A stretch of 64,000 bases of DNA from Nocardioidaceae bacterium (GTDB lineage Bacteria; Actinomycetota; Actinomycetes; Propionibacteriales; Nocardioidaceae), in the NCBI GenBank assembly GCA_047605165.1, contig JASGGG010000006.1, positions 23 through 64,022 of the forward strand. The letters run 5' to 3'. Position 1 is the first letter of the stretch, and each line of letters begins with the position of its first letter. The notes beneath the pieces were generated by a model. It was given only the letters and a program-made list of their open reading frames with translations, had not been told where the DNA came from and searched no databases. Shown piece by piece: positions 20,649 through 35,958 of this stretch. Position numbers and translations under genes: made by a program.

Positions 20649-20732
20649 GCGCGAGTGGCGGAATAGGCAGACGCGCACGGTTCAGGTCCGTGTGCCCGAA
20701 AGGGCGTGGGGGTTCAACTCCCCCCTCGCGCA
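20649..20732 (+). tRNA. tRNA-Leu(CAG), long variable arm
   Basis: GCGCGAGTGGCGGAATAGGCAGACGCGCACGGTTCAGGTCCGTGTGCCCGAAAGGGCGTGGGGGTTCAACTCCCCCCTCGCGCA, with anticodon loop TT-CAG-GT. Confidence 0.92.
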
Positions 20733-20753
20733 CGCGAAGGCAAGACGGTGGAA

Positions 20754-20775
20754 CCCCAGGTCATCCTGGGGTTTC
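20754..20775 (+). terminator. hairpin CCCCAGG-TCAT-CCTGGGG followed by TTTC, just after tRNA-Leu
   Basis: Perfect 7-bp stem followed by a short T tract. Confidence 0.4.
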
Positions 20776-20850
20776 GCTCATTTCTGGGCGTACCCTCATG
20801 GCACGTGTTAGCACGGCGTTAGCACCAGCACCTATACGGGAGGTGTTGAG

Positions 20851-22134
20851 ATGGCTTGGATCACCAAGCGCAAGCGCGCCGACGGCGGAGTCTCGGTGAC
20901 CGTCGTGTGGCGCCACGGAGGCGCGCGTGACGGCGCCTACCAGTCCGAGACTTTCGGGGCGGGCAGCGATGCCCAGAACCTCGCGCGTGCCGATGGCTTC
21001 AAGAAGATGGTCGACGCGGCTGGCCAGCGCTGGCCGGACGGCTGGGTCCGAGGTGAGGGCTTCGTCCGTCCGCCCGGCGAGACCGACCCGATGAAGACGC
21101 CACCGAGGTTCATTGACGTCGGTGAGAAGTACGTCCGCCAGATCGTCGATCTCTCGCCGGGCCAGCGCAAGAAGTACCTGGGCAACCTCCGGGTCCTGGA
21201 GAAGACCAAGGTGTCAGGGTCGTACGTCTTCACCCGGCCGGTCTCCGCGATCACCGAGGCTGACCTGAAGGCGTGGCTGATCGAGTGGGACAGGTCGCTG
21301 AAGACGAAAGCCAACTACCACGGCCTGATGCACGGCATCTTCGCCTACGCCCTCAAGCAGGGTCACCTGACGTCGAACCCGGCGATCGGGACCGCCCCGA
21401 AGCAGTCGCGGGTCAAGCAGTCACGACCCGAACTGCGGTTCTTGACGGAGAAAGAGCTCGGCCGGGCTGCCGAGCTGGCGGGGAAATACGGCGACCTGCT
21501 CGCGGTCACCGCGGCCACGGGGCTGCGGTTCGGTGAGGTGAGTGCGCTGTGGGTCAAGGATGTCGACCTGGCCCATCGCACGATCCGGGTGAACAAGGCG
21601 TGGAAGGAGGAGGGAGACGACGGCGCGACCGATATTCCGGGCTGGCTGGCCAAGCAACTGCGGCCCAAGCACACGATGCGCGACCATTACCTGGGCAACC
21701 CCAAGACCCCGAAGTCACGCAGGACGATCACCATCCCGCCAACCATCGCCAAGGTGTTGGCCCAGTGGATGAAGGACAAGGCGCCCGACGACTTCGTCTT
21801 CACCACTAGAACCGGCCGGCCGCTGCACAACGCCGACTTCTACACCCACCACTGGTCGAAGCTGCAGAAGAAGCTGGAGGCCGAAGGGGTCGCACGCTTC
21901 CGGTTCCACGACCTACGCCACACCCACGTTGCCTGGCTGATCGCGGGCGGCGCTCCGCTCCCGCACATCCAGGCAAGGTTGGGACACGAGTCGATCACCA
22001 CCACCATCGACACCTACGGACACCTCCTGCCCGCTGGCGACGAGCTGATCTCCAGCATCTTGGAGGCCGCGCTGGCGGGCGAGACCATCCGGCCAGCGCA
22101 GGTGGGGAAGCCGAGCGCGAGGATGAGCGAATGA
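20851..22134 (+). CDS. int: tyrosine-type site-specific integrase
   Basis: The C-terminal catalytic region includes ...RFHDLRHTHVAWLIAGGAPLPHIQARLGHESITTTIDTYGHLL (R..H..R..Y signature elements). It is adjacent to a tRNA. Confidence 0.92.
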   Translation: MAWITKRKRADGGVSVTVVWRHGGARDGAYQSETFGAGSDAQNLARADGFKKMVDAAGQRWPDGWVRGEGFVRPPGETDPMKTPPRFIDVGEKYVRQIVDLSPGQRKKYLGNLRVLEKTKVSGSYVFTRPVSAITEADLKAWLIEWDRSLKTKANYHGLMHGIFAYALKQGHLTSNPAIGTAPKQSRVKQSRPELRFLTEKELGRAAELAGKYGDLLAVTAATGLRFGEVSALWVKDVDLAHRTIRVNKAWKEEGDDGATDIPGWLAKQLRPKHTMRDHYLGNPKTPKSRRTITIPPTIAKVLAQWMKDKAPDDFVFTTRTGRPLHNADFYTHHWSKLQKKLEAEGVARFRFHDLRHTHVAWLIAGGAPLPHIQARLGHESITTTIDTYGHLLPAGDELISSILEAALAGETIRPAQVGKPSARMSE

Positions 22135-22945: not shown

Positions 22946-23024
22946 TCCGGCGTCTCCGCAGGTCGCACGGTCCCGCTGAATCAGCGGCACCGCTGAGCCT
23001 GCGCGTCGGCTCCCAGCCGAATCA

Positions 23025-23267
23025 TCAGAGCTTCGACCGCCGCCGGTCTCGCTGGAACGGCAGAAGCTGGGCCGTGACGGGCTGCTCGCAGGAGGTGATG
23101 AACTCGTCGAGGTATTCGATCTTGAATCGGATGTGCTTGCCGACCCTTGCGTGGCGGATCTTGCCGTCGCGGACGGCGTCGGCGACCCAGCGTTCGGGCA
23201 CGTTGAGGTACGCCGCTGCCTCGGCTGTGTCGAGCAGCGGTTGACGGGCTGGCGCGGGTGTGGCCAC
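23025..23267 (-). CDS. excisionase-type helix-turn-helix DNA-binding protein
   Basis: LLDTAEAAAYLNVPERWVADAVRDGKIRHARVGKHIRFKIEYLDEFI is a MerR/Xis-like HTH_17 pattern. Confidence 0.75.
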   Translation of the reverse strand: MATPAPARQPLLDTAEAAAYLNVPERWVADAVRDGKIRHARVGKHIRFKIEYLDEFITSCEQPVTAQLLPFQRDRRRSKL

Positions 23268-23303
23268 GGCGTACCTCCTTCCTTGTTGAGACTGAGACGT
23301 CGG

Positions 23304-23504
23304 TCAGCTGAGGTGCTGGCGGCCTTCGGCGCTGTTGATCCACTCCTTGACGCGGCTCGTCCGATAGACGACGCGGCGGCCGAGTCGGAAGCCGTGGGGC
23401 GGTTGGCCCAGGTGGCGGCGCCAGCGCAGGCTGTCGACGCTCATGCGGCAGATCTTGGCGACCTCCTCGATGAACAGCAGCGGGTCTTCGGGTTCGGGTG
23501 TCAT
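23304..23504 (-). CDS. AlpA/Xis-family helix-turn-helix protein (66 aa)
   Basis: MTPEPEDPLLFIEEVAKICRMSVDSLRWRRHLGQPPHGFRLGRRVVYRTSRVKEWI. The upstream extension of the ORF looks non-coding. Confidence 0.7.
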   Translation of the reverse strand: MTPEPEDPLLFIEEVAKICRMSVDSLRWRRHLGQPPHGFRLGRRVVYRTSRVKEWINSAEGRQHLS

Positions 23505-23610
23505 GTGCTTCTCCTGTCTCTGGTCTTCTGGGGTGACCAAGTGATCAGGCGGGGTCTGAGTGGACACCGCCGGTGGTGGTTGCCTTTCAGCGTGCTCAGG
23601 CAACGCACCA

Positions 23611-23962
23611 AAACACGCCCGTCCCGGCTGCGCCCGTCCTGCCCGATCGGGGAGGGCGCAGGACGGGCGTTGGGACGGGCGCGGGGTGTTTGCGCTGGTC
23701 AGCGCGTTCTCGGGCATCGCCCCTCCTTTCGTAGGTAAAACCTCTGTCGGCGCTGTTGCCGAGCTGTTGGTGAGGTGTTCCGGGCGGGTCGCCGGGCACA
23801 CCTCGCTCGCCCCGACGCGCACGTTGTAGGTGTGCGCCCGTCCCCAAGGGGACAGGACGGGCGTTACCGGATGCGTTCCCCCTGTCCGCGTTCTGGAGGG
23901 GGAACCTTGGGGGAACCTCGCTCCCGGTTCCTGCGTCGTTGCAGGTCAGCGTGCGTTCCCCC
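23611..23962. promoter_or_regulatory. iteron/inverted-repeat-dense non-coding block (candidate oriT and/or operator array)
   Basis: GCCCGTCC/GGACGGGC occurs six times as three inverted pairs (23617, 23632, 23661, 23673, 23836, 23855). GTTCCCCC/GGGGGAAC occurs four times (23875, 23898, 23909, 23955). No convincing ORF spans 23505-24104. Confidence 0.5.
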
Positions 23963-24104
23963 CCGAAATTTCAACGATTCTTCGGAGTCCTCCTTGCTCC
24001 GGGGTTCGACGACGCCGGTGTTCTCCCCGATAAGGGGATAGGCAACGAGTACGTGGCCAAATCGGACGCATCTGAGTCCTCGGCGGTCCTGCCGGCGGAG
24101 TGGG

Positions 24105-27100
24105 TCAGAAGCCGATGCCCGGTCCCTGGCGGTCGGCTCCGGGGCCGTACGTTGGTATCGGGTCAGGGGCCTGTAGCCGGCGCCGGGCTGCGGCGTCGTG
24201 TTCGCGGGCTGCTCGCAAGCGTGCGGCAACACGAGCAGCTTCCTGGGCGGCTTCCCGGTCGGCGGCCCACTGGTCGTGTTCGGCATCCAATCGTCCGGCC
24301 GGGAGGACACGGATCTCGGGGGCGCGGGTGAGGGTGTGGACGCGCTGGTCGGCGACGCGCACCTGCGGGGCAAGCCTGTCGAGGTCGGCCTGGACCTGGT
24401 CCAGTAGTTCGGGCAGATCCGGGTGATAGGCCACCGGCGCGTAGGGCCGCAGCCTCGCCGCAAGATCGTCCTGGTCTGCGCGGAGCGCAGCCTTGGCGTC
24501 GTCGACGACCCGACCGGCGCTGCGGAGCCTTGCTCGGAGGAGTGGGGCTTCGGGGTGCGCCCGTGCGGTGGCGTGCTGTGCGACTTGGGTGATCGTGGCC
24601 TGGAGACGATCCCGCTCGCCGTAGCCGATCTGGCGGCGGACCTGCTCGGGGTCGCCGGATAGCTCAGGCAGAAGGGGCCGCCACTTCTCAGCCCACCTGT
24701 TGAGGACGTCGTGGGCATCGCGGACCTGGCGGCGGTGCAGCCCGAGTGGCCCGGCACCGTCGTGGATCGTCGTGAGGGCATCAGCGACGGCGGGCTGATC
24801 GGCGTTCCACCCTCGCCGCAGGTCGGCGATGGTGTTCTCGGTCTCTGCGGTCATGGCCGCATCCAGGTCCCGTACCGTCGACTGGATCCGGTTCAGCCGA
24901 CGGATCGCCCCGTCGAGGCGATGACGTAGTTGTGTCTGCCTGGGTGCGGATTCCTCGCGGATCGCGCGCACGGCTTCGGTCTGCTGCCGCTGCTGGTCGA
25001 GCCGCTCCCACCGGGTGGTGAGGTCGGCCCGGACCGTCCAAGCGGCACGGAGCCGGTCGAGCACGACGTCGATGGGTCGTTGGGGTGCGTACCGTTCCAT
25101 CTCTTCGGCGGCCTGCTTCGCTGCGTGGGCTGGCCCGAGGTCGGCACGGTCGTGGCCCATGACCTGGTCCCAGATAACGCGAGCTTGGTCTACGTCCTCG
25201 GCCACGATGTGGGCGATGTTGTTGTCGCGTCCGCGTGTCATCCCGACGTAGGCCGCCGAGGCCGACGTGGTCTCCGCGATCAGCATGTGCCCGGTGCTGG
25301 TCGTCTCGCCCTGGGCGCCGTAGACCGTGGTGGCGTAGGCCAGCTCAACCTGGGTCCGGGCGTACGACGCTGGCACGCTCCGGGCGGCGGCGAACCGTTC
25401 CCGCCCCGCAGGGGTCAGGGTGAGCGAGCCGTCCTCACCGACGGCGGCGACGGTCCACGAGTCGCGGTTGGCGACCCCGAGGTCGTGGTCGTTGAGTCGG
25501 GTCGCGACTCGATCCCCGACACCGATGCGCTCCCCAGCCTCGGTGAACACCACCCGAGTGTCATCGACCACGCCACTGGCGACACGCTGGTCACGGATGA
25601 TCCCGTTCAACGCCGCCACCTGGGCACGCGAGTCGGCTATCACCAACAGCCCAGAGCCTGCGCCGGGAGCTGATGCTACTTCTGCTGCGACCGCGTGCAG
25701 CCGCTCGACCTCGGAGGCATGGACGTGGATGTGGCCGCGGGCGAGGAGGGCGTCGAACACCTCCCCAGAAGCCTCCCCAACATGCTCACCAGACGGCTCA
25801 CCAAGTCTGGTCCCGCGGCGCATCGCCAAGGAGATCGCGGCATAGTCGGGCTCGGCGAAGCGGTGCACCACATCGAGTTCGACGACGGCCTCGGGTGCGG
25901 CCCATCGGGCTGCGAGGTCGAGTACGCCGCCGCGACCGACTGCGGGGAGCTGATGGCGATCCCCGACGAGCGCGATCCGGGCGCCGGTCCGGTCAGCGAC
26001 TTGGAAGAGGGCGTGAGCGGTGTCCTGGTCGAGCATGCCCGCCTCGTCGACGAGCAACAGGTCGCCCTTGCCGAGCGTGGTCGCGGGCGGCTGGGTCGGT
26101 TCGTGAGTCCCGCGGCCGTCGTCATCCCACCGCCAGCCGTACTCGTGCACCAGGGCCGCCACAGAGCGAGCCTCGGCAGCAGTCTTGGCGGCGACGTGGG
26201 CAGCCTTCAACGTCGGCGTCACCACGACCAGCCGGTGACCCTGCCGCTCCAGCAGATCCCGAGTCGCGGCCAGAGTCGTCGTCTTCCCAGCCCCGGCTGC
26301 ACCCTCGACCACCACCAGCCGTCCAATCCCCGCAAGGACAGCGACGGCGTCCCGCTGCGCTTGGTCCAGCCCGGCCAGCAACGACACGGACTGTGCTGGC
26401 TCGAGCCGACCGGCGGCGCGCTGGACCATCGCCGCGACCAGGTCGGCCTCGACCGCCAACACACGCAGCGAGGTCAGCGAGCGAACGTGCTCGGGCCCGC
26501 CCTGCTGATCCAACAGGGGCACACTCAGAGCGACGGCACGCGCGGTGATGTCCTCGGCCAACTCGATCCGCACACTTACCTCGGCGACCAGGCCGGTCGC
26601 GGCGATCCACTCCTCGACCCCGCCCCGGAGGTCCGCGGCATTCCAGGCCGACCTGGCTGCACCCAGCCGGGAGACCACAAGATCGGCCGCCCCGTCCCGG
26701 TCCAGCGACCCGACCGCCGGCCCCATGGGCGGGATCGGCAGACCGGGCTGCGCGGGGTCGCGGTAGCCAAGCTGGTGCAACACGGCATTCCACACCGCGA
26801 CCATCTCGGCCCCGTCCGGCACCACCGCGTGCTGCGGCCCGCTGGTTGAGTTCTGCTTCTGCGGCCGGGCCTCGGCCCACGCTCGCCGGTCCCATCCCTG
26901 CCGTAGACGTGGCCCGGGCTCCTCGCCGGGGTGGTCGGCGCGCCAATCGGCCTCGTAGCGGCCCAGGTTGCGCCCGATCTGCGCCGTACGCGCCGAGAAC
27001 TGGCCCACATACGGCGCCAGCTCGACTACCTCAGCCGTGGCGGGGTCCATCGTGAACCCCTGCGCCGCCAAAACGGCCCGGAACTCGGGGTCGGTGGCGA

Positions 27101-27702
27101 CCGCGGCGTGACCGATGCCGTTGATCGCCGCGACCATGTCCCGCACCCCGACCGAGTGCAGACCCCGCCACTTCCCCTCGGCGGACACCCTGGCGTTGAC
27201 CTGCAAGTGAAGGTGCCGGTGCGGGTCACCGGCACGGGAGGTGTAGTGCCGGATCACCGCCGCCTCGATCTGCTCCACTGGGACCTGGACCTGCCGGCCA
27301 CGCGGCCCGACTCGGGTCGTGGCGTGTTCGGCCAGCCAGCCGATGATCTGCTCCGCTGCCCGATCCTGAGCAGCATCCAGTGCCTCGGAGACCTCCGGAT
27401 GCAACGCCGCGGCCAGCGACCAGGTCTTGGGTCCGTTGACGGTGACCTCGACGAACCGCAACGCCTTGCCGTCGTCGCGAAGCCGGCCCTTCGCCTTGCC
27501 GGTGTCGACGTCGTAGCCGGCGACCCAGCGCTCGTAGGTCTCACCGTCCAGCTCACCCTGCCCGCGCGGCCGATGCGCCCGGTGAGGCGGTGTAGCGGGT
27601 CGCGACCCCTGAGCCCTCGGCCAGGTAGTAGTCGTCGGCGCGGGAGTGGTCGGCCTCGACGTAGGCCCGCGCCGCAGCCGCAGACCCGCGGTAGAACTTC
27701 AC
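24105..27702 (-). pseudogene. MobF/TrwC-type relaxase fused to RecD-like helicase (TraA-like), interrupted by one frameshift near 27553
   Basis: The N-terminal frame reads VKFYRGSAAAARAYVEADHSRADDYYLAEG... and stops at a TGA at 27553-27555. The adjacent frame continues ELDGETYERWVAGYDVDTGKAKGRLRDDGKALRFVEVTVNGPKTWSLAA...HRHLHLQVNARV. The helicase Walker A is EGAAGAGKTT. Confidence 0.8.
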
Positions 27703-28026
27703 CCCACCATGCACACCGACCATCCCACAGTTGCTCTGGACGAGGCCCGCAACGAGTGCCAACAACGTCCAACGACTACCCTGAAAATGACGCTCGGCCC
27801 GCCCAGGTGGGGCGGACCGATCTACGTACTTCGTAGCATGCGTGCAGCGGATTTGGGCAGGTCAGACGGCGTGTTGCGAGCAGAACTCGGGTAAGGCTGA
27901 GGGTCGAGCTGGTGGTCGTTGGTGGCAGTGATTGAGTCGACCAGCGGGTGGGGTCAGTGGGGCAGGCGACCACCTGCTCCCTGCGGCGGAGACCAACGGT
28001 GGTCGGTCCGTCGAAACCGGTGTCCG

Positions 28027-28449
28027 CTAGTCAGCGAGTCGCACGACGGTGCACCCGGACAATACGGCGGATTCGAGGATCGCCATCGCCCCGTCGGAGA
28101 CGCAGAGATTGAAGGACTGGTCCAACCAGAAGTCAGAGCGTCCGGGTGCGCCGGTAACCTGAAGCCATCGGTAATCTCGGTGCTCGGCCTTCCCGTAGAG
28201 CTGTCGGTAGTTGTCGCTGGGTCGGACGGGGGCCTTCGTCAGCTTGAAGCCGTCCAGGTGGGCCTTCTTAAGTCGGGATCCGAGTTGGTCGCTCACGAGG
28301 AACACAGGGAACGACGTGATCAGCTCATCGGTCTCCGGTTGGTCCAGCACGTACTCGAGGCGCTTGACCTTCGGCGGGTGGGTGCTGGTGTCGAGGTCGG
28401 TGTCGGGGCCGAGTTCGCCGGCCACTTGGGGGTCGAGTCGGTAGGGCAT
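28027..28449 (-). CDS. candidate immunity protein for the upstream nuclease toxin
   Basis: This 140-aa cytoplasmic-looking protein starts 2 nt after the toxin stop. The arrangement is typical of polymorphic toxin-immunity pairs. Confidence 0.55.
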   Translation of the reverse strand: MPYRLDPQVAGELGPDTDLDTSTHPPKVKRLEYVLDQPETDELITSFPVFLVSDQLGSRLKKAHLDGFKLTKAPVRPSDNYRQLYGKAEHRDYRWLQVTGAPGRSDFWLDQSFNLCVSDGAMAILESAVLSGCTVVRLAD

Positions 28450-28451
28450 CG

Positions 28452-30404
28452 CTAGCCGATCTTAGGAGTGAAGAGGTGGCCGAACTTACGGTCGATCTCC
28501 GTGGCCTCGTTGAGGATGTCCTCACGAGTCGTCGATGATGCGGGATGGGTCTTGTAGAACTCGTCCCACGCCTTCCGAATGTCGCTCAGATGCAGCGAGG
28601 AATTCAGCTCGTTGGGGATGCCACGCAGGTTCTCGAGCGAGTGGATCTCCGAAGCCGTGAACTTGCCCGGGTACCGGGTGAGCACGCTCTGCTCGATTGC
28701 GTGGTGCACGACGACCTCGCCCTTGAGTTCGGGATTGGCCGCGAAGAACGTTGCCCGGTAGTTGGTGCTTGTAGCTTCGCCGACTGTCGCTCTGACGGTG
28801 GCGACGCTCCGAGCGGCTTCGGTCTCAGCCTTGACTACCGCGGCGCTCGGTCGTGCAGCCTCGGCGACCTTGGCCACGCGCACTGCCTCGGTGGCGACCT
28901 TGGCAGCCTTGGCGATCTTGGTGAAGGCGAGACCCGGGACGGCGGCGGCCAGCGAGAGGCCGGCTTCGGTGTAGTCGCCTTGGACGGTGTACCAGGTCGC
29001 GTTCGTCGCTGCAGCACCGATGCCGATGGCGTCGAAGGGCGGAGGAGCGAAGGTCGAGAGAGACAGGATGTCGAGCACGTTGTGACCCCAGTGCTCGATC
29101 CAGTGCCACAGCTCCTTGGCGACCGCGACGACGCAGTGCCCGTAGTCGAGCGGGTTCCAGGAACAGCCGCTCCCTTCCTTCATGCTCTTGGCCAGACCCT
29201 GCAGCACCTGCGAGTCGCCGAGCGGCGTGCCGCCGGCTGCCTCGGCCACGGCTTCGGTCACTCCGCCGGTCGAGTCGATGGCGGAGTTCAGGGCGGTGAG
29301 CGTCGCGGTCATCCCGACGTTGTTGCCGTCGGATGCGGTCGGGAAGTGGTGCTCGAAGAACAGGTAGTGGGTGAACTTTCCGACCGGGTGATCCGAGCCG
29401 TCGTAGGAGATGTTCTCCGTCCCGGGCTCGAAGTCAGTGAAGGCCCAGTCGCTCGCGGTCGGGTTCGAGGTGAGCGCCGCCGTCATGGCGAGCATGCCGT
29501 CGGTCAGGTAAGCCCCGTCAGGCGCGGGCGCATACTTCGCATCGTCCAGACGCGCCTCGGACCAGCCGTTGTCGCCGTGGGCTTGGTCGTACTCCGTGTA
29601 GGTCGTCGTCAGTGCCATTAGGAAGTTGTTCGACCAGTAGCCGCGGGAGATCAGCAGGAGCAGGTTCTGCTTGTTGGCGATGTCCTGGTCAGTGCGCTGC
29701 TTGGTGGCTGCGTCCGGCGGATCGGCGGACTCGCTGTACAAATCCGTCGGAGCGGTTGTCGCCTGGATAAGGTTGTCCGACCATGCCAGCGGGAGCGATT
29801 CATCGCCGGTGCCGTGAGTTGCTAAGGCCAGGGTCCCCGCAAGGTCGGTCAGGGTGTTCTCGTAGGCGGTTGTGTCAATGCCTGCCCGGAACGGCGTCGT
29901 GGTGCCGGCGACCGAAGCTAGCGCGTCGCCAAGCATGCGCGGGGTGGTCTGCGATGCGAAGAGGTAAGCAAAGTCGGGGCTACCGCGGTGGGCCGCGAGC
30001 TGCTTGTCGAGTGCCGCAAGGTCCGGCTTCCGGAGCGCCTTGACGGCCGCGGCTGCCTCGCGGTGGTCCTTCCACTGCTGATCGTGGAAGGTCGGGAGTT
30101 GCGTGTAGGCGATCGCGGCTCCCGCGATGATGGCCAGGATGATTGCCGTGGCCACCGCGGCGATCCATCGCGGTCGCTTCGGTTTGCTGAAGGTCAGGTT
30201 GGTCCGGCGCTTGTCGGGCTGCTCGTCGTCCAGCTTCCAGCACTTGGCCTCCCACCTGCCGACGACATGGTCGCGCCGGGAGTGGCGTACGCGCTTCGTC
30301 CTGAGGTTCTGTCGCGGGGTGCGCGAGGAGGCGCCGCCCTCACGGGCTGCGCGACTCTCTGGCCCAGCGGTTGTCAACTCTGCTTCTCCTGACGACTCCG
30401 TCAC
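28452..30404 (-). CDS. membrane-anchored polymorphic-toxin-like protein with C-terminal xHH-type HNH/EndoVII-fold nuclease domain
   Basis: A basic N-terminus is followed by one TM segment (WIAAVATAIILAIIAGAAIAY) and a domain of about 400 aa of unknown fold. A pre-toxin-like linker (GDYTEAGLSLAAAVPGLAFTKIAKAAK) precedes the tip, which reads EVVVHHAIEQ...ENLRGIPNELNSSLH (HH..N..H spacing). Confidence 0.6.
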   Translation of the reverse strand: MTESSGEAELTTAGPESRAAREGGASSRTPRQNLRTKRVRHSRRDHVVGRWEAKCWKLDDEQPDKRRTNLTFSKPKRPRWIAAVATAIILAIIAGAAIAYTQLPTFHDQQWKDHREAAAAVKALRKPDLAALDKQLAAHRGSPDFAYLFASQTTPRMLGDALASVAGTTTPFRAGIDTTAYENTLTDLAGTLALATHGTGDESLPLAWSDNLIQATTAPTDLYSESADPPDAATKQRTDQDIANKQNLLLLISRGYWSNNFLMALTTTYTEYDQAHGDNGWSEARLDDAKYAPAPDGAYLTDGMLAMTAALTSNPTASDWAFTDFEPGTENISYDGSDHPVGKFTHYLFFEHHFPTASDGNNVGMTATLTALNSAIDSTGGVTEAVAEAAGGTPLGDSQVLQGLAKSMKEGSGCSWNPLDYGHCVVAVAKELWHWIEHWGHNVLDILSLSTFAPPPFDAIGIGAAATNATWYTVQGDYTEAGLSLAAAVPGLAFTKIAKAAKVATEAVRVAKVAEAARPSAAVVKAETEAARSVATVRATVGEATSTNYRATFFAANPELKGEVVVHHAIEQSVLTRYPGKFTASEIHSLENLRGIPNELNSSLHLSDIRKAWDEFYKTHPASSTTREDILNEATEIDRKFGHLFTPKIG

Positions 30405-30552
30405 GACGGGGGCGAGGCTACTTCGATCCGCGCCCCTGGGTGGTCAGAACCTGATCGTCCGAAACGAACGGGCAGACCTTACGGCCGCAGGCCGACACAA
30501 ATCGTTTCACGGGACCGTCCGCCGCCGCCCGCAAGGGGGCAGGCAGACGGTC

Positions 30553-32208
30553 TCAGCGGAGCCCGAGGTGTTTGGCGACATCCTGGCCACCGACCGCGGT
30601 CACGACGTCGGGGTCACCGACAACGACCAGCAGATCGGTGGCGCGGGACATCCCGACGTAGAGGCGCTCGCGGGCGCGGTCGCGGGTGCCGTCTTCGTTG
30701 AGGCAGAGCACGACAGCGGAGCGTTCCAAGCCTTTACAGCCCAGGACGTGGCCGTAGAAGACCTCCTCACCGTCGAAGTAGTTGGCCCAGTAGCCCCGCT
30801 GGCCTTCCTGCTCCTGTTGCATGACTTGGGTCCAGTGCCGTGATCCTGTGGTGATGAGTGCGACCTGCCCTGGCTCCCAGCCTTCCTCGTCGAGTAGGCG
30901 GATGACCTGGTCGTCGGCGACCTCGACCGCATCGTGCACGGCGGCGGGCAGGAATCGGACCTCGGGTCCGGTTCCGCCGCGGGCGTACATCCGTGAGGGT
31001 GCGAGTGGGGCGAATGCCTCGGCGATCTGCCTGGTGTTGCGCAGGCAGTGATCGAGCACGAGCGGGACCAACGGCACGGGTGGGCGCCCAAAGCGGCCGA
31101 AGATGCGCTGATTCTCATCGGAGAACACGTAGAGGCCACCGTCGGTCTCGTCGCGCAGCGCGGCGATCAGCGGGGTCCACCAGGAGTCGGCGAAGTCCTG
31201 GGCCTCGTCGACGACGATGGCGTCGAACCGCTTGCCTTTGGGCAGTTGCCGCGCGAGTTCGGCCATGCGCCGCGGAAGCTCTTCTTCCCAGAAGGCTGAG
31301 GCGGCTCGGTCGCCGAATTCGGTCAGGCCCCACTCGGCGGCGAGTTCCTCGAAGGTTCCGACGAACGCGGGGCGGTCCTTCCTGGGCCAGGACGTGACCT
31401 GTCGTTTGAGGTGCTCGGCCAGCCCGATCGAGTAGCAGAGCAGCGCGGTGCGCTGGGCTTTGCGGTCGTGGCGGCCTCGGGTGAGCTCCTTGGCTTGCTG
31501 GAGCGCGAGCACTGTCTTGCCGCTGCCGGCGCCGCCACGGACCTCGACGCGGTTGAGCAGTCGGGTGACCGAGAGGATGAGGCTCTGCTGGTCGGTGAGC
31601 CGGTCGGCGGTGGCCTGCCGGTCGAGTGCTTCGGCGTTGACGTCGTAGGTCGTGGTCAGTCGTCCGCCGAGGATCTCGGCGAGGGCTTCGGTGTCGTCTG
31701 GGGTGAGGGTGCGGCGGTTGGTCTCCATGTCGTGGGCGTTGCGCCGTAGCCGGGTGATCAGGGTGGGTAGGTCGTCGCGGTCGTGCAAGGCGTGGCGAGG
31801 CAGGTCGGGCAGGTCCTGGGGCGGGAAGGTGCTGTACGGGACGACGACGCCGTGTGCCCAGGCGACTCGTCCTCGGCCGCCCCAGCGAGGGTCGGCCTCT
31901 ACGTAGCGTCGGATGGCGTGCTTGGCGTCGCGGGCTTGGTCGACCGGGTGGATCCACTTCGACTCGCCGGCGACGGTCTGGATCCAGCCGTCCTCGTACC
32001 AGACCGACGAGCCCTTGACCTCAAGCACGAGCACGCCGAAGTCCGGCATCACCACGATCAGGTCCGCTTCGTAGTCCCGGTTCTCGTCGGTGAGCCGGAA
32101 GTTGGCGAACAGCAGATCGTCTGGTCCGAGCCCGTTCCGTAGTCGCTCCCAGGTCTGCTGTTCGGAGTTGGTGGCGAACTGCGGGGATTCTGGGAAGAGC
32201 CTCACCAC
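30553..32208 (-). CDS. NERD domain fused to UvrD/RecD-like SF1 helicase/ATPase
   Basis: NERD motif ADLIVVMPDFGVLVLEVKG, Walker A GGAGSGKT, Walker B VVDEAQDF and C-terminal YVGMSRATDLLVVV. Confidence 0.8.
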   Translation of the reverse strand: MVRLFPESPQFATNSEQQTWERLRNGLGPDDLLFANFRLTDENRDYEADLIVVMPDFGVLVLEVKGSSVWYEDGWIQTVAGESKWIHPVDQARDAKHAIRRYVEADPRWGGRGRVAWAHGVVVPYSTFPPQDLPDLPRHALHDRDDLPTLITRLRRNAHDMETNRRTLTPDDTEALAEILGGRLTTTYDVNAEALDRQATADRLTDQQSLILSVTRLLNRVEVRGGAGSGKTVLALQQAKELTRGRHDRKAQRTALLCYSIGLAEHLKRQVTSWPRKDRPAFVGTFEELAAEWGLTEFGDRAASAFWEEELPRRMAELARQLPKGKRFDAIVVDEAQDFADSWWTPLIAALRDETDGGLYVFSDENQRIFGRFGRPPVPLVPLVLDHCLRNTRQIAEAFAPLAPSRMYARGGTGPEVRFLPAAVHDAVEVADDQVIRLLDEEGWEPGQVALITTGSRHWTQVMQQEQEGQRGYWANYFDGEEVFYGHVLGCKGLERSAVVLCLNEDGTRDRARERLYVGMSRATDLLVVVGDPDVVTAVGGQDVAKHLGLR

Positions 32209-33233
32209 GGCTCCGGAGCCACTTCGTGATGAGCGAGGAGGCGCTTGGCTAGACCTGGACCTTCGCTGACCAGGCCGGCGGGACGCAGGATGCGGGTCTC
32301 TGGCCCGGAGGCGAGGGTGATCAGGCCGACGCGCCAGCCGACCGGCTCCAGCAGGTCGACATCGACGGTGAATCCGTCGGCTGTGTCGGCGATGACCGCG
32401 CTGCCTTCGGCGTATTCATCGAGCGCCCAACGGGCGCGGTGGGGCAGCTGCACGCGGACGGTGGTTGTTGCGCGTTGCTCCCTGAGTAGTACCTCAGCGT
32501 CGGCGCCGGGCGCGAAAGTCTCATCGAGCACCTCCGCGTCGCGGATGTTGGAGACGAGGTAGGTGCGGAGCCTGCCGTTCGCGGTGACCGGCCCAGCGTC
32601 GACCTCCCAGCCTCGCACCGTCGTCTGCACGAGCCGCCAGGGTTCGATGGTGCGCTCGACGACCCCTGTCTCCCACTGTCGGGAGTAGCGGATGCGGACT
32701 TTGCGTCGCTGGGCCGAGGCTTGTTGTAGGCAGTCGAGGAACGCTGGGCGCCAGAGGTTGTCTGTGAGGGACTCGGTGTCGCCGCCCATGAGTGTCTCGG
32801 CGATGATCCAGACTGCGGATTCGAGGACCGGGTCGCCTTCCGGCGCTTGGAGGTCGAGGGCCGCGCTGGCGGCTGCGTGGATGAGGGCGAGCTCTCCGGC
32901 GTCGAGGTACTCGACACCGAGGTCCTGGGGCTCTTCCACGAGACGCACGACGAGCGCACTTGCGGGGTCGGCCTCGCGGTTCTCATCGTCTTCGGGGGCC
33001 TCGTCCTGCTCGTCGTTTGCGCCGGTCCATTCCAGGACTCGTCGGCGGGTCAGGCCCATCCAGATGCCGATGTCGGCCGCGTAGTAGGCGAGCAGGTCTT
33101 CGCGCAGCTCGTCGGCGTCGATGCCGCACTCATCGGCCAGCATTGAGAGCGGCACGCCGTCGGGGTGGGCGTGGAGTTGGTCGAAGACATCGAGCAATCG
33201 TGCGATGCGACGTACGTAGGACGGTGTGGCCAT
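32202..33233 (-). CDS. WYL-domain transcriptional regulator, PafC-like
   Basis: N-terminal wHTH (RRIARLLDVFDQLHAHPDGVPLSMLADECGIDADELREDL) is followed by an acidic insert. The WYL-type core reads VRIRYSRQWETGVVERTIEPWRLV, with a C-terminal extension. Confidence 0.75.
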   Translation of the reverse strand: MATPSYVRRIARLLDVFDQLHAHPDGVPLSMLADECGIDADELREDLLAYYAADIGIWMGLTRRRVLEWTGANDEQDEAPEDDENREADPASALVVRLVEEPQDLGVEYLDAGELALIHAAASAALDLQAPEGDPVLESAVWIIAETLMGGDTESLTDNLWRPAFLDCLQQASAQRRKVRIRYSRQWETGVVERTIEPWRLVQTTVRGWEVDAGPVTANGRLRTYLVSNIRDAEVLDETFAPGADAEVLLREQRATTTVRVQLPHRARWALDEYAEGSAVIADTADGFTVDVDLLEPVGWRVGLITLASGPETRILRPAGLVSEGPGLAKRLLAHHEVAPEPW

Positions 33234-33234
33234 C

Positions 33235-34143
33235 TCAAACGCCTGCCATCTCGCGCAGCTCGGACAGCATCTCCTCGCGGAAGTCCTCCGGACCGACGAC
33301 CTGGATTCGCTCGCCCAGCATGTAGAGCCGCGCGCGCATGGCGGCCCGGTGAGTCACATGATAGGTCAGCAGATGCGTGCCGCCCTCAGCGACGTGGCGC
33401 TCGGTCGGCTCTTGGAGCCACCGCACCACGTCGGGCAGGAACTCGTCCGGGACGGCGATCGTCACGTCGGTCGACTCATCGGCCTCCCAGCGCAGCGGGT
33501 GCAGGGCCAGTCGGCCGACAGGCTCGACCCGGTCCGCGGTACCGGCTTGTCCGAGGTGGACCTCGCTCATCCGAGAGACCACGAAGTGCTTCACCTCTGC
33601 GTGACCGTCTTCTCTGCCGCTGAGGTACCACTGGCTGTTCTGGTGACGCACGCTGGCCGGATGCACGATTCGGTCGCGGCCGTTGTAGCGGAATCGGATG
33701 AGCGCATGGCGCTGTACGGCACGCATCGCGGCATCGAGGTGCTCCAGCTCTTCCGGATGCTTGACCGCGATGTCGGGGACCGGCCGCACCGCCTCGGGCT
33801 CCAGCCCGAGCCGTAAAGCGAGGTCGCTCCGGTCTGCCAGGAGCGCGGTCCGTTGGAGCGCGGTCTGCTCGGCGGCGTTGAGCCGCAGGCGAAGCCGACT
33901 GTCGCCTGTGCGCAGCCGCCACACCGCGTCAGCGCGGGCAGGGGCGATGTTGTCGATCTGCCAGCCTTGGCTTCGCAGGTGCCGGAACTCGCGGCCCAGT
34001 GCGTCGGTGGAGTCGTTGGCGTCGAATCCCGCGATCCGCATCAAGGTCGCGGCCGGCACGCCACGCTCACCGGCGTCAGAGAGTACGGCCGTCAGCCGGA
34101 TGAGTCGCTCCATCGGCTCGCGCTGCTTCCGTCCCCGTGCCAC
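33235..34143 (-). CDS. WYL-domain transcriptional regulator, PafB-like
   Basis: ERLIRLTAVLSDAGERGVPAATLMRIAG...FRHLRSQGWQI is the HTH. The WYL core is LIRFRYNGRDRIVHPASVRHQNSQWYLSG. GTG start inferred at 34143. Confidence 0.75.
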   Translation of the reverse strand: MARGRKQREPMERLIRLTAVLSDAGERGVPAATLMRIAGFDANDSTDALGREFRHLRSQGWQIDNIAPARADAVWRLRTGDSRLRLRLNAAEQTALQRTALLADRSDLALRLGLEPEAVRPVPDIAVKHPEELEHLDAAMRAVQRHALIRFRYNGRDRIVHPASVRHQNSQWYLSGREDGHAEVKHFVVSRMSEVHLGQAGTADRVEPVGRLALHPLRWEADESTDVTIAVPDEFLPDVVRWLQEPTERHVAEGGTHLLTYHVTHRAAMRARLYMLGERIQVVGPEDFREEMLSELREMAGV

Positions 34144-34315
34144 AGGCCCATTCTGGCCGGTCGATCCCGCTCCTCGCAGACGTTCCAGGCGCCGGTCGGA
34201 CGCTCGACCGCGATTTGTGTCGGCAGCCGGCCCTACACCTATCCCCGACAACACCGACCGCGGCCAACGGGTCGCATCCGGCTCGACCGCGAGTCGTGCA
34301 CCAACGGAGGGCACC

Positions 34316-34669
34316 ATGTCTTACTCACAGCTTCCCCCGGCGCCTGATGGCGCCATCAGCAGCGCCCACAAGGGCAGCAACGGCCTCGCCGTCGCCGGGT
34401 TCGTCCTCGGCCTCCTGGGCCTGCTCGGCTCCTTCATCCCTGTCGTCAACATCGGCGCGATCGTGCTGGCCGTGATCGGCCTCGTCCTAGCCGGCATCGG
34501 CCTTGCGCGCTCGAAGTCGGCCCGAGGCGGCAAGGGTCTGGCCATCGCCGGCCTCATCCTCAGTGTCCTGGGCATCATCATCGCCATCATCATCGACGTC
34601 GCCGTCGGCAACGCCTTCCACAAGGCCACCAGCAACAGCGTCGACACCAGCACGGTAAAGACACCCTGA
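34316..34669 (+). CDS. DUF4190-type small membrane protein; stop codon supplied by the IS3 terminal repeat
   Basis: MSYSQLPPAPDG...GLAVAGFVLGLLGLLGSFIPVVNIGAIVLAVIGLVLAGIGL.... The TGA at 34667-34669 is the first three bases of the IS inverted repeat. Confidence 0.7.
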   Translation: MSYSQLPPAPDGAISSAHKGSNGLAVAGFVLGLLGLLGSFIPVVNIGAIVLAVIGLVLAGIGLARSKSARGGKGLAIAGLILSVLGIIIAIIIDVAVGNAFHKATSNSVDTSTVKTP

Positions 34670-34717
34670 ACCGCCCCGGCGTGTCCGGAGAGCTGATTCG
34701 TTGGAAGGATCACTCTC

Positions 34718-35041
34718 ATGTCACGACCCTCGAAGTACACCCCGGAGCTGCGTGAGCGCGCGGTGCGGATGGTGATGGAGTCTAGGCAGGATTATCCGCA
34801 CGAGGCCGCGGCGATCAGGTCGGTCGCGGGCAAGCTCGGGATCACCTCGCCCGAGTCGCTGCGCAAGTGGCTGCGCCAGGCCGAGATCGATGGCGGTACC
34901 CGTCCGGGGAAGACCAGTGAGGAGATTGCTGAGATCAAGAGCCTCAAGAAGGAGGTCGCCGAGCTTCGGCGGGCCAACGAGATCTTGAAGGCGGCCTCGG
35001 CTTTCTTCGCGGCGGAGCTCGACCGCCCCAACAGGTTCTGA
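34718..35041 (+). CDS. IS3 transposase OrfA (HTH/leucine zipper)
   Basis: MSRPSKYTPELRERAVRMV...ESLRKWLRQAEIDGG...EIKSLKKEVAELRRANEILKAASAFFAAELD. Confidence 0.9.
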   Translation: MSRPSKYTPELRERAVRMVMESRQDYPHEAAAIRSVAGKLGITSPESLRKWLRQAEIDGGTRPGKTSEEIAEIKSLKKEVAELRRANEILKAASAFFAAELDRPNRF

Positions 35042-35958
35042 TCGACTTCATCGCTGCTCACAAAGACGAGTTCGGGGTCGAGCCGATCTCTCGCGTGCTC
35101 GCTGAGCACGGGATCAAGATCGCCCCGTCCACCTTCTACGAGGCCGTCAGTCGGCGGCCCTCGAAACGAGTGCTCCGCGACGCTGAACTGGTCGCGCTGA
35201 TCGAGGCCGAGCGTGGCCGACAGAAGCTGATCGCGAGGTTCGGGGCCAGGAAGATGTGGCTCCACCTGCGAGGCAGGGGCCACGACGTCGCGCGGTGCAC
35301 CATCGAGCGGCTCTACCGCGAGCAGGGCTGGCAAGGCGCCCTGCGGCTGAAGAAGATCCGCACCACCATCGGCGACCCCGCGGCCGAACGGCCACTTGAC
35401 CGGGTCGACCGACACTTCTGGGCGTCGCGCCCGAACCAGCTGTGGGTAGCCGACTTCACCTACGTCGCGACCTGGGCCGGCACCGTCTATGTCGCGTTCG
35501 TCTTCGACGTCTTCAGCCGGCGGATCGTCGGGTGGAGGGCGGCCACCCGGATGACCACCGACCTGGTGCTGGACACCTTGGAGCATGCGATCTGGACGCG
35601 TCGCCAGCAGGGCGTCACCGACCTATCGGGACTCATCCATCACACCGATGCCGGGTCCCAATACGTCAGTTTCGCGTTCACACAACGTCTTGTCGACGAG
35701 GGCGTCGACCCGTCGGTTGGCTCGATTGGCGACGCCTACGATAACGCGCTCGCGGAGTCACAGATCGGGCTCTACAAGGCCGAGTTGATCCGACCCGAAG
35801 GCCCTTGGCGCGGGGTCGAGCATGTCGAACTGGAGACCCTGAACTGGGTCGACTTCTTCAACAACGAGCGCCCCCACGAGGCCCTCGACGACCTCACCCC
35901 GATGGCCGCCGAAGAACTCCACTACGCTGCAAGGAACCGGCTCAAGCCGACCGGCTGA
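35040..35958 (+). CDS. IS3 transposase OrfB (DDE integrase core), expressed via -1 frameshift from OrfA
   Basis: The -1 frame is open from about 35020 (..QQVLIDFIAAHKDEFGVEPISRVL..). Motifs: WVADFTYV, HTDAGSQYVS and YDNALAES. Confidence 0.85.

What the first reader, a model, noticed from the sequence alone, without database searches (positions are those of the whole stretch)
28027..30404. Membrane-anchored polymorphic-toxin-like protein with xHH (HNH/EndoVII-fold) nuclease tip and an adjacent immunity gene, with no recognisable secretion-system marker
The 650-aa protein has the following parts in order:
- a very basic N-terminus
- a single TM helix
- a domain of about 400 aa that I cannot assign
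- a pre-toxin-like linker (GDYTEAGLSLAAAVPGLAFTKIAKAAK plus an Ala/Val/Lys-rich helix)
- a C-terminal tip of about 110 aa reading VVVHHAIEQ...NLRGIPNELNSSLH, which has the HH..N..H spacing of AHH/GHH/SHH-type toxin nucleases

A 140-aa cytoplasmic-type ORF starts 2 nt after its stop, which is the classic immunity position.

I see no WXG/LXG, Rhs/YD, CdiA or T7SS signature. This leaves the delivery route in a monoderm actinobacterium open. Possibilities are contact-dependent surface display, release by proteolysis, or a role during element transfer.

By eye, the two genes look more AT-rich than their neighbours. I did not compute this.
Basis: partly seen in the sequence, partly recalled or inferred. 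Interest (0 to 1): 0.65.

Follow-up and report, generated by a model that had tools for sequence, protein, structure and literature searches.

The report
Membrane-anchored polymorphic nuclease toxin with immunity
This is a bacterial toxin gene with its antidote gene on a mobile genomic island: the toxin's conserved membrane-anchored body carries interchangeable DNA-cutting tips, an ordinary kind of bacterial weapon, though its body, tip and antidote families are all undescribed.

Summary
A 650-aa ORF (28452..30404, minus) and a 140-aa ORF (28027..28449, minus) lie 2 nt apart. The pair is among the most AT-rich stretches of the window.

The 650-aa protein is a true polymorphic toxin. More than 150 actinobacterial homologues share its transmembrane anchor, an all-alpha domain of about 330 aa with no match in Pfam or PDB, and a junction motif. 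After that motif they carry at least six unrelated C-terminal tips (GH-E, an HNH-like tip, REase-7, REase-9, an unknown tip, and this one).

This tip has no Pfam or NCBIfam model, but it defines a large family of at least 1191 clusters. The family always sits at the C-terminus, on Rhs, S-type pyocin, eCIS, PT-HINT and SLH proteins. The confident AlphaFold model is beta-beta-alpha, with invariant HH..N..N..H. Structure searches return mostly HNH nucleases, but none is significant.

The 140-aa family follows this tip directly in Actinomycetota, Pseudomonadota and Bacillota, so it is the cognate immunity protein.

No secretion marker and no conserved accessory gene was found. The pair is cargo of an island at tRNA-Leu that carries an integrase and a frameshifted relaxase.

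This is a new variant of a known kind, and its delivery route remains open.

The parts
28452..30404 (-). Polymorphic toxin gene (650 aa).
   Evidence: ORF listed. It has 157 homologues with E <= 1e-3. GC3 is 0.84, typical of coding sequence in this window.
30168..30404 (-). Basic N-terminal segment, predicted cytoplasmic (aa 1-79), with a conserved W-x3-GWE/L motif at aa 51-58.
   Evidence: Charge count. The motif is conserved in the alignment A1. The cytoplasmic location is inferred from the positive-inside rule.
30099..30167 (-). Single transmembrane helix (aa 80-102), read as a signal anchor.
   Evidence: Kyte-Doolittle maximum of 2.64 over 19 aa, preceded by KPKRPR. AlphaFold models it as the start of one long helix.
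29106..30098 (-). Conserved all-alpha scaffold domain (aa 103-433), with a nearly invariant Cys pair at C414 and C424.
   Evidence: Conservation in alignments A1 and A3. The AlphaFold model has pLDDT 83 and pTM 0.83. There is no significant PDB fold match (best E 0.044, TM <= 0.27) and no Pfam or NCBIfam model.
28905..29105 (-). Pre-toxin junction module (aa 434-500): WGHxVLDILS...FAPPPF...ATNATWY..GDYxxAGLSLAAAVPGLAFTKIAK. This is the point after which the tips diverge.
   Evidence: Alignment A1. The same module lies between the Rhs core and PT-HINT in a Kutzneria Rhs toxin, and in the WXG-type toxin P0344 just before the same tip. It does not match Pfam PT-TG.
28767..28904 (-). Ala/Val/Lys-rich helical linker (aa 501-546).
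   Evidence: Its length and sequence vary between homologues. AlphaFold predicts helices with lower pLDDT.
28455..28766 (-). C-terminal toxin tip (aa 547-650), a predicted His-Me finger (HNH-like) nuclease. The candidate catalytic residues are H567, H568, N592, N601 and H605.
   Evidence: The AlphaFold model has pLDDT 95 and a beta-beta-alpha topology. The residues are invariant or nearly so in A2 and A6. The profile finds 1191 cluster representatives, with the domain always C-terminal, on Rhs, pyocin-S, eCIS, PT-HINT and SLH scaffolds. Weak Foldseek matches are dominated by HNH nucleases. GC is lowest here, at 59.7%.
28027..28449 (-). Cognate immunity gene (140 aa), starting 2 nt after the toxin stop codon.
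   Evidence: The family lies directly downstream of the tip in L001, L002, L027, L030 and L032.
27794..27820 (-). Terminator-like hairpin about 200 nt downstream of the immunity gene, a possible operon end.
   Evidence: The number of such sites is no greater than in shuffled sequence, so this is weak evidence.
20649..22134 (+). Left end of the island: tRNA-Leu(CAG) at 20649-20733, followed by a tyrosine integrase gene at 20851-22134.
24105..27765 (-). TrwC/AAA_30 relaxase gene just downstream of the pair. It is frameshifted: the N-terminal 70 aa are in ORF 27553-27765 and the rest is in ORF 24105-27461.

Best explanation
The two genes are a polymorphic toxin-immunity pair. They are carried as cargo on an integrated, mobilisable genomic island of an actinobacterium.

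How the toxin is built. It is inserted into the membrane through the general (Sec/YidC) route as a type II protein. The basic N-terminus stays inside the cell. One transmembrane helix anchors the protein. A conserved all-alpha domain of about 330 aa with a novel fold, a pre-toxin junction and a flexible helical linker then present a C-terminal tip of about 104 aa outside the membrane.

What the tip does. It is a His-Me finger (HNH/EndoVII-like) metal-dependent nuclease. By analogy with colicin DNases, H568 would be the general base, H567, N601 and H605 the metal ligands, and N592 a structural residue. The tip kills a neighbouring cell that lacks the antidote by degrading its DNA.

What the 140-aa protein does. 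It is cytoplasmic. It binds and blocks the tip, both in the producing cell and in sister cells that carry the island.

How tips change. Tip-plus-immunity cassettes are exchanged by recombination at the junction motif.

Shown: the architecture, the tip polymorphism, the co-variation of tip and immunity, the reuse of this cassette on other delivery scaffolds, and the island context.

Inferred: the outside topology, the nuclease chemistry, the binding of immunity protein to tip, and how the tip reaches and enters a target cell. Entry could follow contact or proteolytic release near the junction.
For: Architecture and polymorphism. There are 157 homologues. They are conserved through aa ~115-500 and diverge after GDYxxAGLSLAAAVPGLAF. 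Seven tip clusters were found among 119 homologues: GH-E 57, HNH-like 32, unknown 21, this tip 5, REase-9 2, REase-7 1 and one truncated.

Immunity co-varies with the tip:
- GH-E tips go with ankyrin proteins.
- HNH-like tips go with Tdi1_C proteins.
- This tip goes with the 140-aa family.

The cassette is portable. The tip profile finds 1191 cluster representatives, always C-terminal. The host proteins carry RHS, DUF6443, eCIS_core, PT-HINT, PT-TG, Pyocin_S or LysM domains, or SLH domains. The 140-aa family follows the tip in Luteibacter (31% identity, E 1e-25), in Vibrio and a metagenome (E 5e-44 and 7e-40), and in B. thuringiensis (E 1.6e-24).

Nuclease fold. The AlphaFold model has pLDDT 95. 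Strand 1 ends in HH, N592 precedes strand 2, and N601 and H605 lie on the following helix. These residues are invariant or nearly so. Six of the first 11 PDB matches, and 24 of the top 50 BFVD matches, are HNH or His-Me nucleases.

Topology. There is one transmembrane helix with a K/R-rich N-side, and a nearly invariant Cys pair in the large domain.

No partner. No neighbouring gene is shared across the 24 loci.

Island. The order is tRNA-Leu, integrase, excisionase-like HTH genes, relaxase and IS3. The cassette has low GC.
Against: - No Pfam or NCBIfam nuclease model matches the tip, even at E <= 10.
- No Foldseek match is significant (best E 0.37 against PDB and 0.10 against BFVD).
- hhalign against the GH-E and HNH-like tips of sister proteins finds nothing.
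- Toxicity, nuclease activity and neutralisation are untested.
- A protein anchored in the membrane by a domain of about 330 aa may not reach through an actinobacterial cell wall, so surface delivery needs an extra step that is not seen here.
- No RNA data exist for this locus.
- The neighbours include defence-like genes (a NERD helicase and WYL proteins), which would also suit an intracellular suicide role.
Confidence: 0.75

Rival explanations
1. The pair is an intracellular suicide or defence module, or a toxin-antitoxin pair that stabilises the island. On this reading the toxin is never exported. It sits on the inner face of the membrane and kills its own cell, for example on phage infection or on loss of the island, when the immunity protein is depleted.
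For: The pair lies next to a NERD+UvrD helicase with two WYL regulators. These match candidate defence models in PADLOC and recur beside the toxin in three loci. The pair is on a mobile island. No export partner was found.
Against: The positive-inside rule places the large domain outside. That domain has a nearly invariant Cys pair. The same tip-immunity cassette sits at the end of exported weapons: Rhs proteins, an S-type pyocin, an eCIS effector and an SLH surface protein. Sister tips pair with known immunity families of interbacterial toxins, namely ankyrin and Tdi1. Neither gene hits PADLOC.
Confidence: 0.1
2. The protein is a substrate of a specialised secretion machine encoded elsewhere: the Esx/type VII system, or the type IV conjugation apparatus of a helper element. 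On this reading the conserved N-terminal domain is the recognition or adaptor module for that machine.
For: The same junction module and tip occur on a WXG-type protein (P0344). Several homologues lie inside conjugative elements that carry Prim-Pol, ParB, NlpC/P60, coupling-protein and Tad pilus genes. Here a relaxase gene lies next to the pair.
Against: The protein has no WXG100, LXG or other type VII signature. An N-terminal transmembrane anchor after about 80 cytoplasmic residues is not typical of such substrates. The island in the window has no type IV secretion genes, and its relaxase is frameshifted. No secretion gene is a conserved neighbour across the 24 loci.
Confidence: 0.1
3. The tip is a toxin but not a nuclease. 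The conserved His, Asn and Glu residues would then serve another chemistry, such as a metallo-hydrolase acting on a different target.
For: There is no significant sequence or structure match to any characterised nuclease.
Against: The order of secondary-structure elements and the placement of HH, N, N and H fit the beta-beta-alpha-metal finger. Weak structural matches are overwhelmingly HNH nucleases. Every recognisable sister tip on this scaffold is a nuclease. The Luteibacter immunity homologue has a faint match to Imm11, a family linked to AHH, HNH and SHH toxins (PMC3482391).
Confidence: 0.15

Closest known systems
Sec-dependent polymorphic toxins with lineage-specific N-terminal domains: Neisseria MafB (MAFB-N/DUF1020), Microscilla N-domain toxins, and the BetaH toxins of S8-PTS in Gram-positives (PMC3482391 section 37; PMC9424270).
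   Same: A general-secretion leader is followed by a conserved, clade-restricted N-terminal domain, then by interchangeable C-terminal toxin tips, each with its own immunity gene directly downstream. The loci are often on genomic islands. How the toxin gets beyond the membrane is unknown or only proposed.
   Different: The leader here is an uncleaved transmembrane anchor that follows a basic cytoplasmic segment of about 80 aa. The domain is an all-alpha fold of about 330 aa with no Pfam model and no PDB match. There is no conserved partner gene, unlike MafA for MafB or the S8 peptidase for BetaH toxins. The family is restricted to Actinomycetota.
xHH-type HNH/EndoVII toxin domains (Tox-AHH, SHH, LHH and GHH2) and colicin E7/E9 DNases.
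   Same: A double His ends the first strand. An Asn comes next, and a metal-binding N or H plus a further H four residues later lie on the following helix. N592 to N601 is 9 residues and N601 to H605 is 4. From my own recollection, unchecked here, colicin E9 has the same spacings (N118, H127, H131). The domain is small and C-terminal and has a dedicated immunity protein.
   Different: No Pfam model of these families matches the tip. The two strands are separated by a conserved insert of 24 residues that contains E571 and H588. The family has its own immunity family. It is best treated as a separate, unnamed branch of the His-Me finger superfamily.
Imm11 (PF07791/DUF1629), an immunity family linked to Tox-AHH, Tox-HNH and Tox-SHH.
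   Same: It is a small cytoplasmic alpha+beta protein encoded directly downstream of an xHH-type toxin. The Luteibacter homologue gives a faint match of 13.2 bits.
   Different: That match is below the curated cut-off of 22.1 bits and covers only 24 positions. The window protein and the other homologues give no match.
Rhs and WXG-type polymorphic toxins of Actinomycetota.
   Same: They share the pre-toxin junction module (GHxxLD...NAxWYAxxGDYxxAGLSLAxAxP), and in P0344 also the same tip.
   Different: The window protein has no Rhs/YD repeats, no PT-HINT domain and no WXG domain.

Membership tests
Polymorphic toxin system (sensu Zhang et al. 2012, PMC3482391) | A conserved N-terminal region with unrelated, interchangeable C-terminal toxin domains among homologues. 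| tested here: met
   Seven tip clusters were found among 119 homologues after a conserved junction.
Polymorphic toxin system (sensu Zhang et al. 2012, PMC3482391) | An immunity gene directly downstream that co-varies with the tip. | tested here: met
   GH-E tips go with ankyrin, HNH-like tips with Tdi1_C, and this tip with the 140-aa family.
Polymorphic toxin system (sensu Zhang et al. 2012, PMC3482391) | The same toxin domain is reused on other delivery scaffolds. | tested here: met
   The tip occurs on Rhs, DUF6443, eCIS_core, PT-HINT, PT-TG, Pyocin_S, LysM and SLH proteins.
Polymorphic toxin system (sensu Zhang et al. 2012, PMC3482391) | Orphan tip/immunity cassettes downstream of the full-length gene. 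| tested here: not met
   tblastn with all tips and immunity proteins finds nothing else in the window. Short stand-alone tip genes do exist in other genomes, for example Luteibacter. This feature is common in such systems but not obligatory.
Polymorphic toxin system (sensu Zhang et al. 2012, PMC3482391) | The tip is toxic and its cognate immunity protein protects against it. | not testable with these tools
   This needs expression and competition experiments.
His-Me finger / HNH-EndoVII superfamily | A beta-beta-alpha core, with the catalytic His at the end of strand 1 and the metal ligand on the helix. | tested here: met
   In the AlphaFold model (pLDDT 95), strand V564-H568 ends in HH, strand L593-P597 follows N592, and the helix from N598 carries N601 and H605. 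These residues are conserved.
His-Me finger / HNH-EndoVII superfamily | A statistically significant sequence-profile or structure match to a known member. | tested here: not met
   Pfam gives no hit at E <= 10. A PDB sequence-profile search gives none. The best Foldseek E-values are 0.37 (PDB) and 0.10 (BFVD), although the hit lists are dominated by HNH nucleases. hhalign against sister tips gives nothing.
His-Me finger / HNH-EndoVII superfamily | Metal-dependent nuclease activity. | not testable with these tools
   This needs a biochemical assay.
Pfam Tox-AHH / Tox-SHH / Tox-GHH / LHH | A match to the family model at or above its gathering score. | tested here: not met
   No match was found for the full protein or for the tip alone, nor in ten host proteins of the tip family.
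Imm11 (PF07791) | A match to the family model at or above its gathering score. | tested here: not met
   The window protein gives no hit at E <= 10. The Luteibacter homologue scores 13.2 bits against a cut-off of 22.1.
Type VII (WXG100/LXG) substrates, Rhs, CdiA, MafB | The signature N-terminal or repeat domains (WXG100, LXG, RHS repeats, TPS/haemagglutinin, DUF1020). | tested here: not met
   Pfam gives zero families for the 650-aa protein at E <= 1.
Pre-toxin TG domain (PF14449) | A match of the junction region to the PT-TG model. | tested here: not met
   There is no hit at E <= 10 for aa 414-544. PT-TG is detected in another host of the same tip, P0313.
Integrative mobilisable/conjugative element (the setting of the pair) | A site-specific recombinase gene next to a tRNA gene, plus a relaxase gene. 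| tested here: met
   tRNA-Leu lies at 20649-20733 and a Phage_integrase gene at 20851-22134. A TrwC+AAA_30 relaxase gene is present but frameshifted.
Integrative mobilisable/conjugative element (the setting of the pair) | Flanking direct repeats (att sites) and a type IV secretion or coupling apparatus. | tested here: not met
   No second copy of the tRNA 3' end and no convincing direct repeat was found. No T4SS genes lie between 20.8 and 36 kb.

The most novel reading that the evidence does not exclude
The conserved all-alpha domain with its transmembrane anchor defines a previously unrecognised delivery route for contact-dependent toxins in Actinomycetota. This route would be independent of the Esx system. 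The toxin would be displayed on, or released from, the cell surface by the domain itself, with processing at the shared junction module. It would spread on conjugative and mobilisable elements, which would use it to eliminate neighbours, or failed recipients, that lack the element.
Probability: 0.3. Interest if true: 0.7.

Novelty: new variant of a known kind. Interest (0 to 1): 0.5.

Why it matters
Interbacterial toxins of Actinomycetota are known mainly from Esx/WXG substrates, Rhs proteins and the Streptomyces umbrella particles. This locus adds a family that carries none of those markers.

Three pieces of it are undescribed:
- a membrane-anchored scaffold domain with a confident but unmatched fold;
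- a very widespread toxin tip (at least 1191 clusters at 50% identity, on Rhs, pyocin, eCIS and SLH proteins in at least four phyla) that no Pfam or NCBIfam model covers;
- a matching immunity family.

Naming the tip and the immunity family would improve the annotation of many toxin loci. The scaffold makes it possible to test how a monoderm bacterium with a thick wall delivers a membrane-anchored nuclease. The recurrent presence of the family on conjugative and mobilisable islands also bears on how such elements compete and persist.

Tried and rejected
- Pfam, NCBIfam and PADLOC scans of the toxin, the tip alone and the immunity protein gave no usable hits.
- A PDB sequence-profile search with the tip alignment gave only a chance hit to amicyanin.
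- Foldseek with the tip against PDB and BFVD, and with the scaffold domain against PDB, gave no significant matches. The scaffold hits are generic alpha-solenoids with TM <= 0.27.
- hhalign of the tip profile against the GH-E, HNH-like and unknown tips of sister proteins gave no relationship. A 15-column alignment of ENLRGIPxxLN with SNMKxLDxxVN is suggestive but has E 0.16.
- A search for an attR copy of the tRNA-Leu 3' end, and for direct repeats bounding the island, found none.
- A search for a conserved neighbour that could act as a secretion or processing partner across 24 loci found none.
- A search for orphan cassettes in the window found none.
- A full-text search for the tip motifs found no paper. 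Literature searches found no description of this scaffold.
- The APD1 and APD2 domains that I recalled turned out to be Amoebophilus-specific and unrelated.
- Sequencing runs: only one soil metagenome holds part of the locus, and no RNA data exist, so expression could not be checked.
- A second transmembrane segment at the junction was rejected. The hydropathy there is 1.27 and the hydrophobic run is only 14 residues long.
Full report
**1. The observation**

The ORF list reproduces the finding exactly. A 650-aa ORF runs 28452..30404 on the minus strand. A 140-aa ORF runs 28027..28449 on the same strand and starts 2 nt after the first one's stop codon. Both have the high third-position GC of real genes in this window (0.84 and 0.82).

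The protein has a basic N-terminus, with 20 K+R against 11 D+E in the first 90 residues. It has a single strong hydrophobic helix at residues 80-102, preceded by KPKRPR. No second membrane segment is present.

The by-eye AT-richness is real. The pair is 65.1% GC, against 68.2 +/- 1.2% for windows of the same size, and only 4 of 617 such windows are lower. The tip is 59.7% GC and the 140-aa gene 63.4%. Pfam and NCBIfam return nothing for either protein.

**2. The 650-aa protein is a polymorphic toxin**

A search of 5.8 billion proteins gave 157 homologues. The named ones come from Nocardioides, Mumia, Cellulomonas, Ornithinimicrobium and Aeromicrobium. A scan of reference genomes added Aquihabitans, Thermoleophilaceae, Ancrocorticia, Janibacter and Acidimicrobiaceae, so the family is confined to Actinomycetota.

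In alignments, residues ~115-500 are conserved, up to the motif GDYxxAGLSLAAAVPGLAFTKIAK. The sequences become unrelated after it.

Clustering the last 115 residues of 119 homologues gives seven groups:

| Tip group | Members | Note |
|---|---|---|
| GH-E nuclease (PF14410) | 57 | |
| HNH-like, DLDHxIDLQ...N...N | 32 | weak match to Endonuclea_NS_2 |
| unassigned tip | 21 | no Pfam model |
| this tip | 5 | |
| Tox-REase-9 | 2 | |
| Tox-REase-7 | 1 | |
| truncated protein | 1 | |

Tip type does not follow scaffold similarity. P0004, the closest relative that lacks this tip (65% identity over the matched region), has the unassigned tip. P0005 and P0006 (56% and 49%) have this tip. This is the recombinational tip-swapping that defines polymorphic toxins (PMC3482391).

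**3. The tip**

No Pfam model matches the last ~104 residues, even at E <= 10. The domain is nonetheless very common. A word-based search found 66 short proteins at 55-70% identity, among them proteins of Luteibacter, Chromobacterium and a deltaproteobacterium. An exhaustive profile search of 1.84 billion cluster representatives found 1191 with E <= 0.001. In all 150 listed, the domain is at the extreme C-terminus of proteins 110 to 4750 aa long.

The host proteins carry the following domains:
- RHS repeats with DUF6531;
- DUF6443 (Chryseobacterium);
- the eCIS core domain;
- PT-HINT;
- PT-TG;
- LysM;
- the S-type pyocin domain (Vibrio ruber);
- S-layer homology domains, on B. thuringiensis and B. 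mycoides plasmids.

The tip is therefore a portable toxin module used by many delivery systems in at least four phyla.

The AlphaFold model built on 67 sequences is confident (pLDDT 95, pTM 0.86). It shows these elements:
- A strand, V564-H568, ends in the invariant HH.
- An insert of 24 residues follows, with conserved E571 and H588.
- A second strand, L593-P597, is preceded by the invariant N592.
- A long helix carries the near-invariant N601 and the invariant H605.

This is the order of elements of the beta-beta-alpha-metal (His-Me, HNH/EndoVII) finger. The N-to-N/H spacing of 9 residues and the further +4 spacing equal, from my recollection, those of the colicin E9 DNase motif.

No Foldseek match is significant. 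The best E is 0.37 against PDB and 0.10 against BFVD. The lists are far from random, however. Six of the first eleven PDB matches are HNH-containing proteins: the SspE C-terminal domain, HNH-Cascade, McrA and IscB. 24 of the top 50 BFVD matches are named HNH or homing endonucleases. One further match is a Bathycoccus virus protein, from a group in which Tox-AHH has been reported (PMC3482391).

hhalign against the sister GH-E and HNH-like tips finds nothing. My conclusion is that a His-Me nuclease is likely (about 0.7). It would be a separate, unnamed branch close to the xHH families. It is not a demonstrable member of Pfam AHH, SHH or GHH.

**4. The 140-aa protein is the cognate immunity protein**

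It has 29 homologues and no Pfam model.

The same family lies immediately downstream of the tip on unrelated scaffolds:

| Locus | Toxin setting | Match of the downstream gene |
|---|---|---|
| L001, Luteibacter | stand-alone tip gene | 31% identity, E 1e-25 |
| L027, metagenomic contig | short tip gene | E 7e-40 to the family profile |
| L030, Vibrio ruber | S-type pyocin | E 5e-44 |
| L029 | degraded Rhs locus | frameshifted copy |
| L032, B. thuringiensis plasmid | SLH protein | E 1.6e-24 |

Within the scaffold family, each tip type has its own downstream gene type: ankyrin for GH-E and Tdi1_C for the HNH-like tip.

**5. The scaffold and the delivery question**

Residues 80-560, modelled on 120 sequences, give a confident all-alpha domain with one small hairpin (pLDDT 83, pTM 0.83). 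It has no PDB counterpart. The best E is 0.044, all TM-scores are <= 0.27, and the hits are generic solenoids.

The positive-inside rule places this domain and the tip outside the membrane. So does a nearly invariant Cys pair (C414 and C424, in CSWNPLDYGHC). This topology is an inference.

The junction module (aa 434-500) is not private to this family. It lies between the Rhs core and PT-HINT in a Kutzneria Rhs toxin. It also precedes the same tip in the WXG-type protein P0344. It is best read as a pre-toxin module that marks the recombination point and perhaps a processing point. AlphaFold confidence drops at FAPPPF...ATNAT.

No gene is a shared neighbour across 24 loci. A Pfam census of 136 nearest neighbours gave 179 families. 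No dedicated secretion, anchoring or processing partner is therefore visible, unlike MafA for MafB or the S8 peptidase for BetaH toxins. The delivery step beyond membrane insertion remains unknown.

**6. Genomic setting**

The window carries the conserved actinobacterial pknB-pbpA-rodA-pstP-fhaA cluster at 13-20.5 kb. After it come, in order:
- tRNA-Leu(CAG), 20649-20733;
- a tyrosine integrase, 20851-22134;
- two excisionase-like HTH_17 genes;
- a TrwC/AAA_30 relaxase;
- the immunity gene and the toxin gene;
- a NERD+UvrD helicase;
- two WYL proteins;
- an IS3 element, 34718-35958.

The pair is thus cargo of an integrated island of the mobilisable type. The island looks decayed: the relaxase is frameshifted, no attR was found and no type IV secretion genes are present.

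Other members of the family sit in conjugative-element contexts. L004, L005 and L010 have Prim-Pol, ParB, NlpC/P60 and Tad pilus genes. L013 and L015 have relaxases. Coupling proteins and ArdC occur elsewhere. At least 6 of the 24 loci carry such markers.

**7. Comparison with what is known, and verdict**

The kind is known. Zhang et al. (PMC3482391, section 37) describe Sec-dependent polymorphic toxins with lineage-specific N-terminal domains (MAFB-N, the Microscilla N-domain) and propose that these domains anchor the toxin on the surface. The S8-PTS/BetaH system is a later example in Gram-positives (PMC9424270).

The present family works like these but is not a member of any of them. It has a different leader (an uncleaved anchor), an unmatched scaffold fold, no partner gene, and a tip and an immunity family that no library covers. 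I found no paper that describes them.

I rate the finding as a new variant of a known kind, of moderate interest (0.5). The open and testable question is how a membrane-anchored nuclease crosses from one walled monoderm cell to another.

Noticed in passing
window 27462-27765 and 24105-27461 (-): The TrwC relaxase gene next to the pair is split by a frameshift. The typical N-terminus (GGVKFYRG...DYYLAEG) is in one frame, in ORF 27553-27765. The rest (ELDGETYERWVAGYD...) continues in another frame. This is either a pseudogene or a sequencing error.
   Followed up: partly
window 30553-34317 (-): A NERD+UvrD-like helicase (551 aa) is followed by two WYL-domain proteins, one with a WCX domain. The helicase matches the PADLOC candidate defence models C3a187 and RTasNERD-Hel. 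The same trio lies beside the toxin in L002 and L016, but in a different order and orientation.
   Followed up: partly
window 20649-35958: An island is inserted next to tRNA-Leu(CAG), just after the conserved pknB-pbpA-rodA-pstP-fhaA cluster. It carries an integrase, two HTH_17 excisionase-like genes and an IS3 element (34718-35958) near its presumed right end. No attR repeat was found, so the right border is undefined.
   Followed up: partly
L032 (B. thuringiensis plasmid pSCG364) 914-4810; L030 (Vibrio ruber) 5001-6985: The same unannotated tip and immunity pair ends a 1131-aa S-layer-homology protein on Bacillus plasmids and a 517-aa S-type pyocin in Vibrio ruber. In public annotation the tip region itself carries no name.
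   Followed up: yes
L026 (Kutzneria sp. CA-103260) 4700-11254: A 2184-aa Rhs toxin carries the same junction module as the window protein, right after its Rhs core. PT-HINT and Tox-REase-7 follow, and the downstream gene encodes HEAT repeats. This pairing agrees with the REase-7 / Imm-HEAT link reported in PMC3482391.
   Followed up: partly
window 30230-30254 (aa 51-58) and homologues in A1: The predicted cytoplasmic N-terminal segment holds a conserved small motif (R-rich, then W-x3-GWE[LV], then LxFR[RK]) in many but not all homologues. Its role is unknown. It could be a regulatory or sorting element.
   Followed up: no
P0004 and 20 other homologues (tip cluster 'unk21'): A third common tip on this scaffold (21 of 119) has no Pfam match. 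Its downstream gene (98 aa in L012) has none either, so this is another unnamed toxin/immunity pair.
   Followed up: partly
L004 10001-12317 and flanks: A GH-E-tipped homologue with an ankyrin immunity gene sits in the middle of a conjugative-element-like region. That region carries DUF6112, NlpC/P60, ParB, Prim-Pol and a complete Tad pilus cluster with a 1004-aa LysM protein. L005 and L010 share this arrangement.
   Followed up: partly
window 3071-3461 (-): Adjacent tRNA-Ala(TGC) and tRNA-Ile(GAT) genes. I did not look at them further.
   Followed up: no
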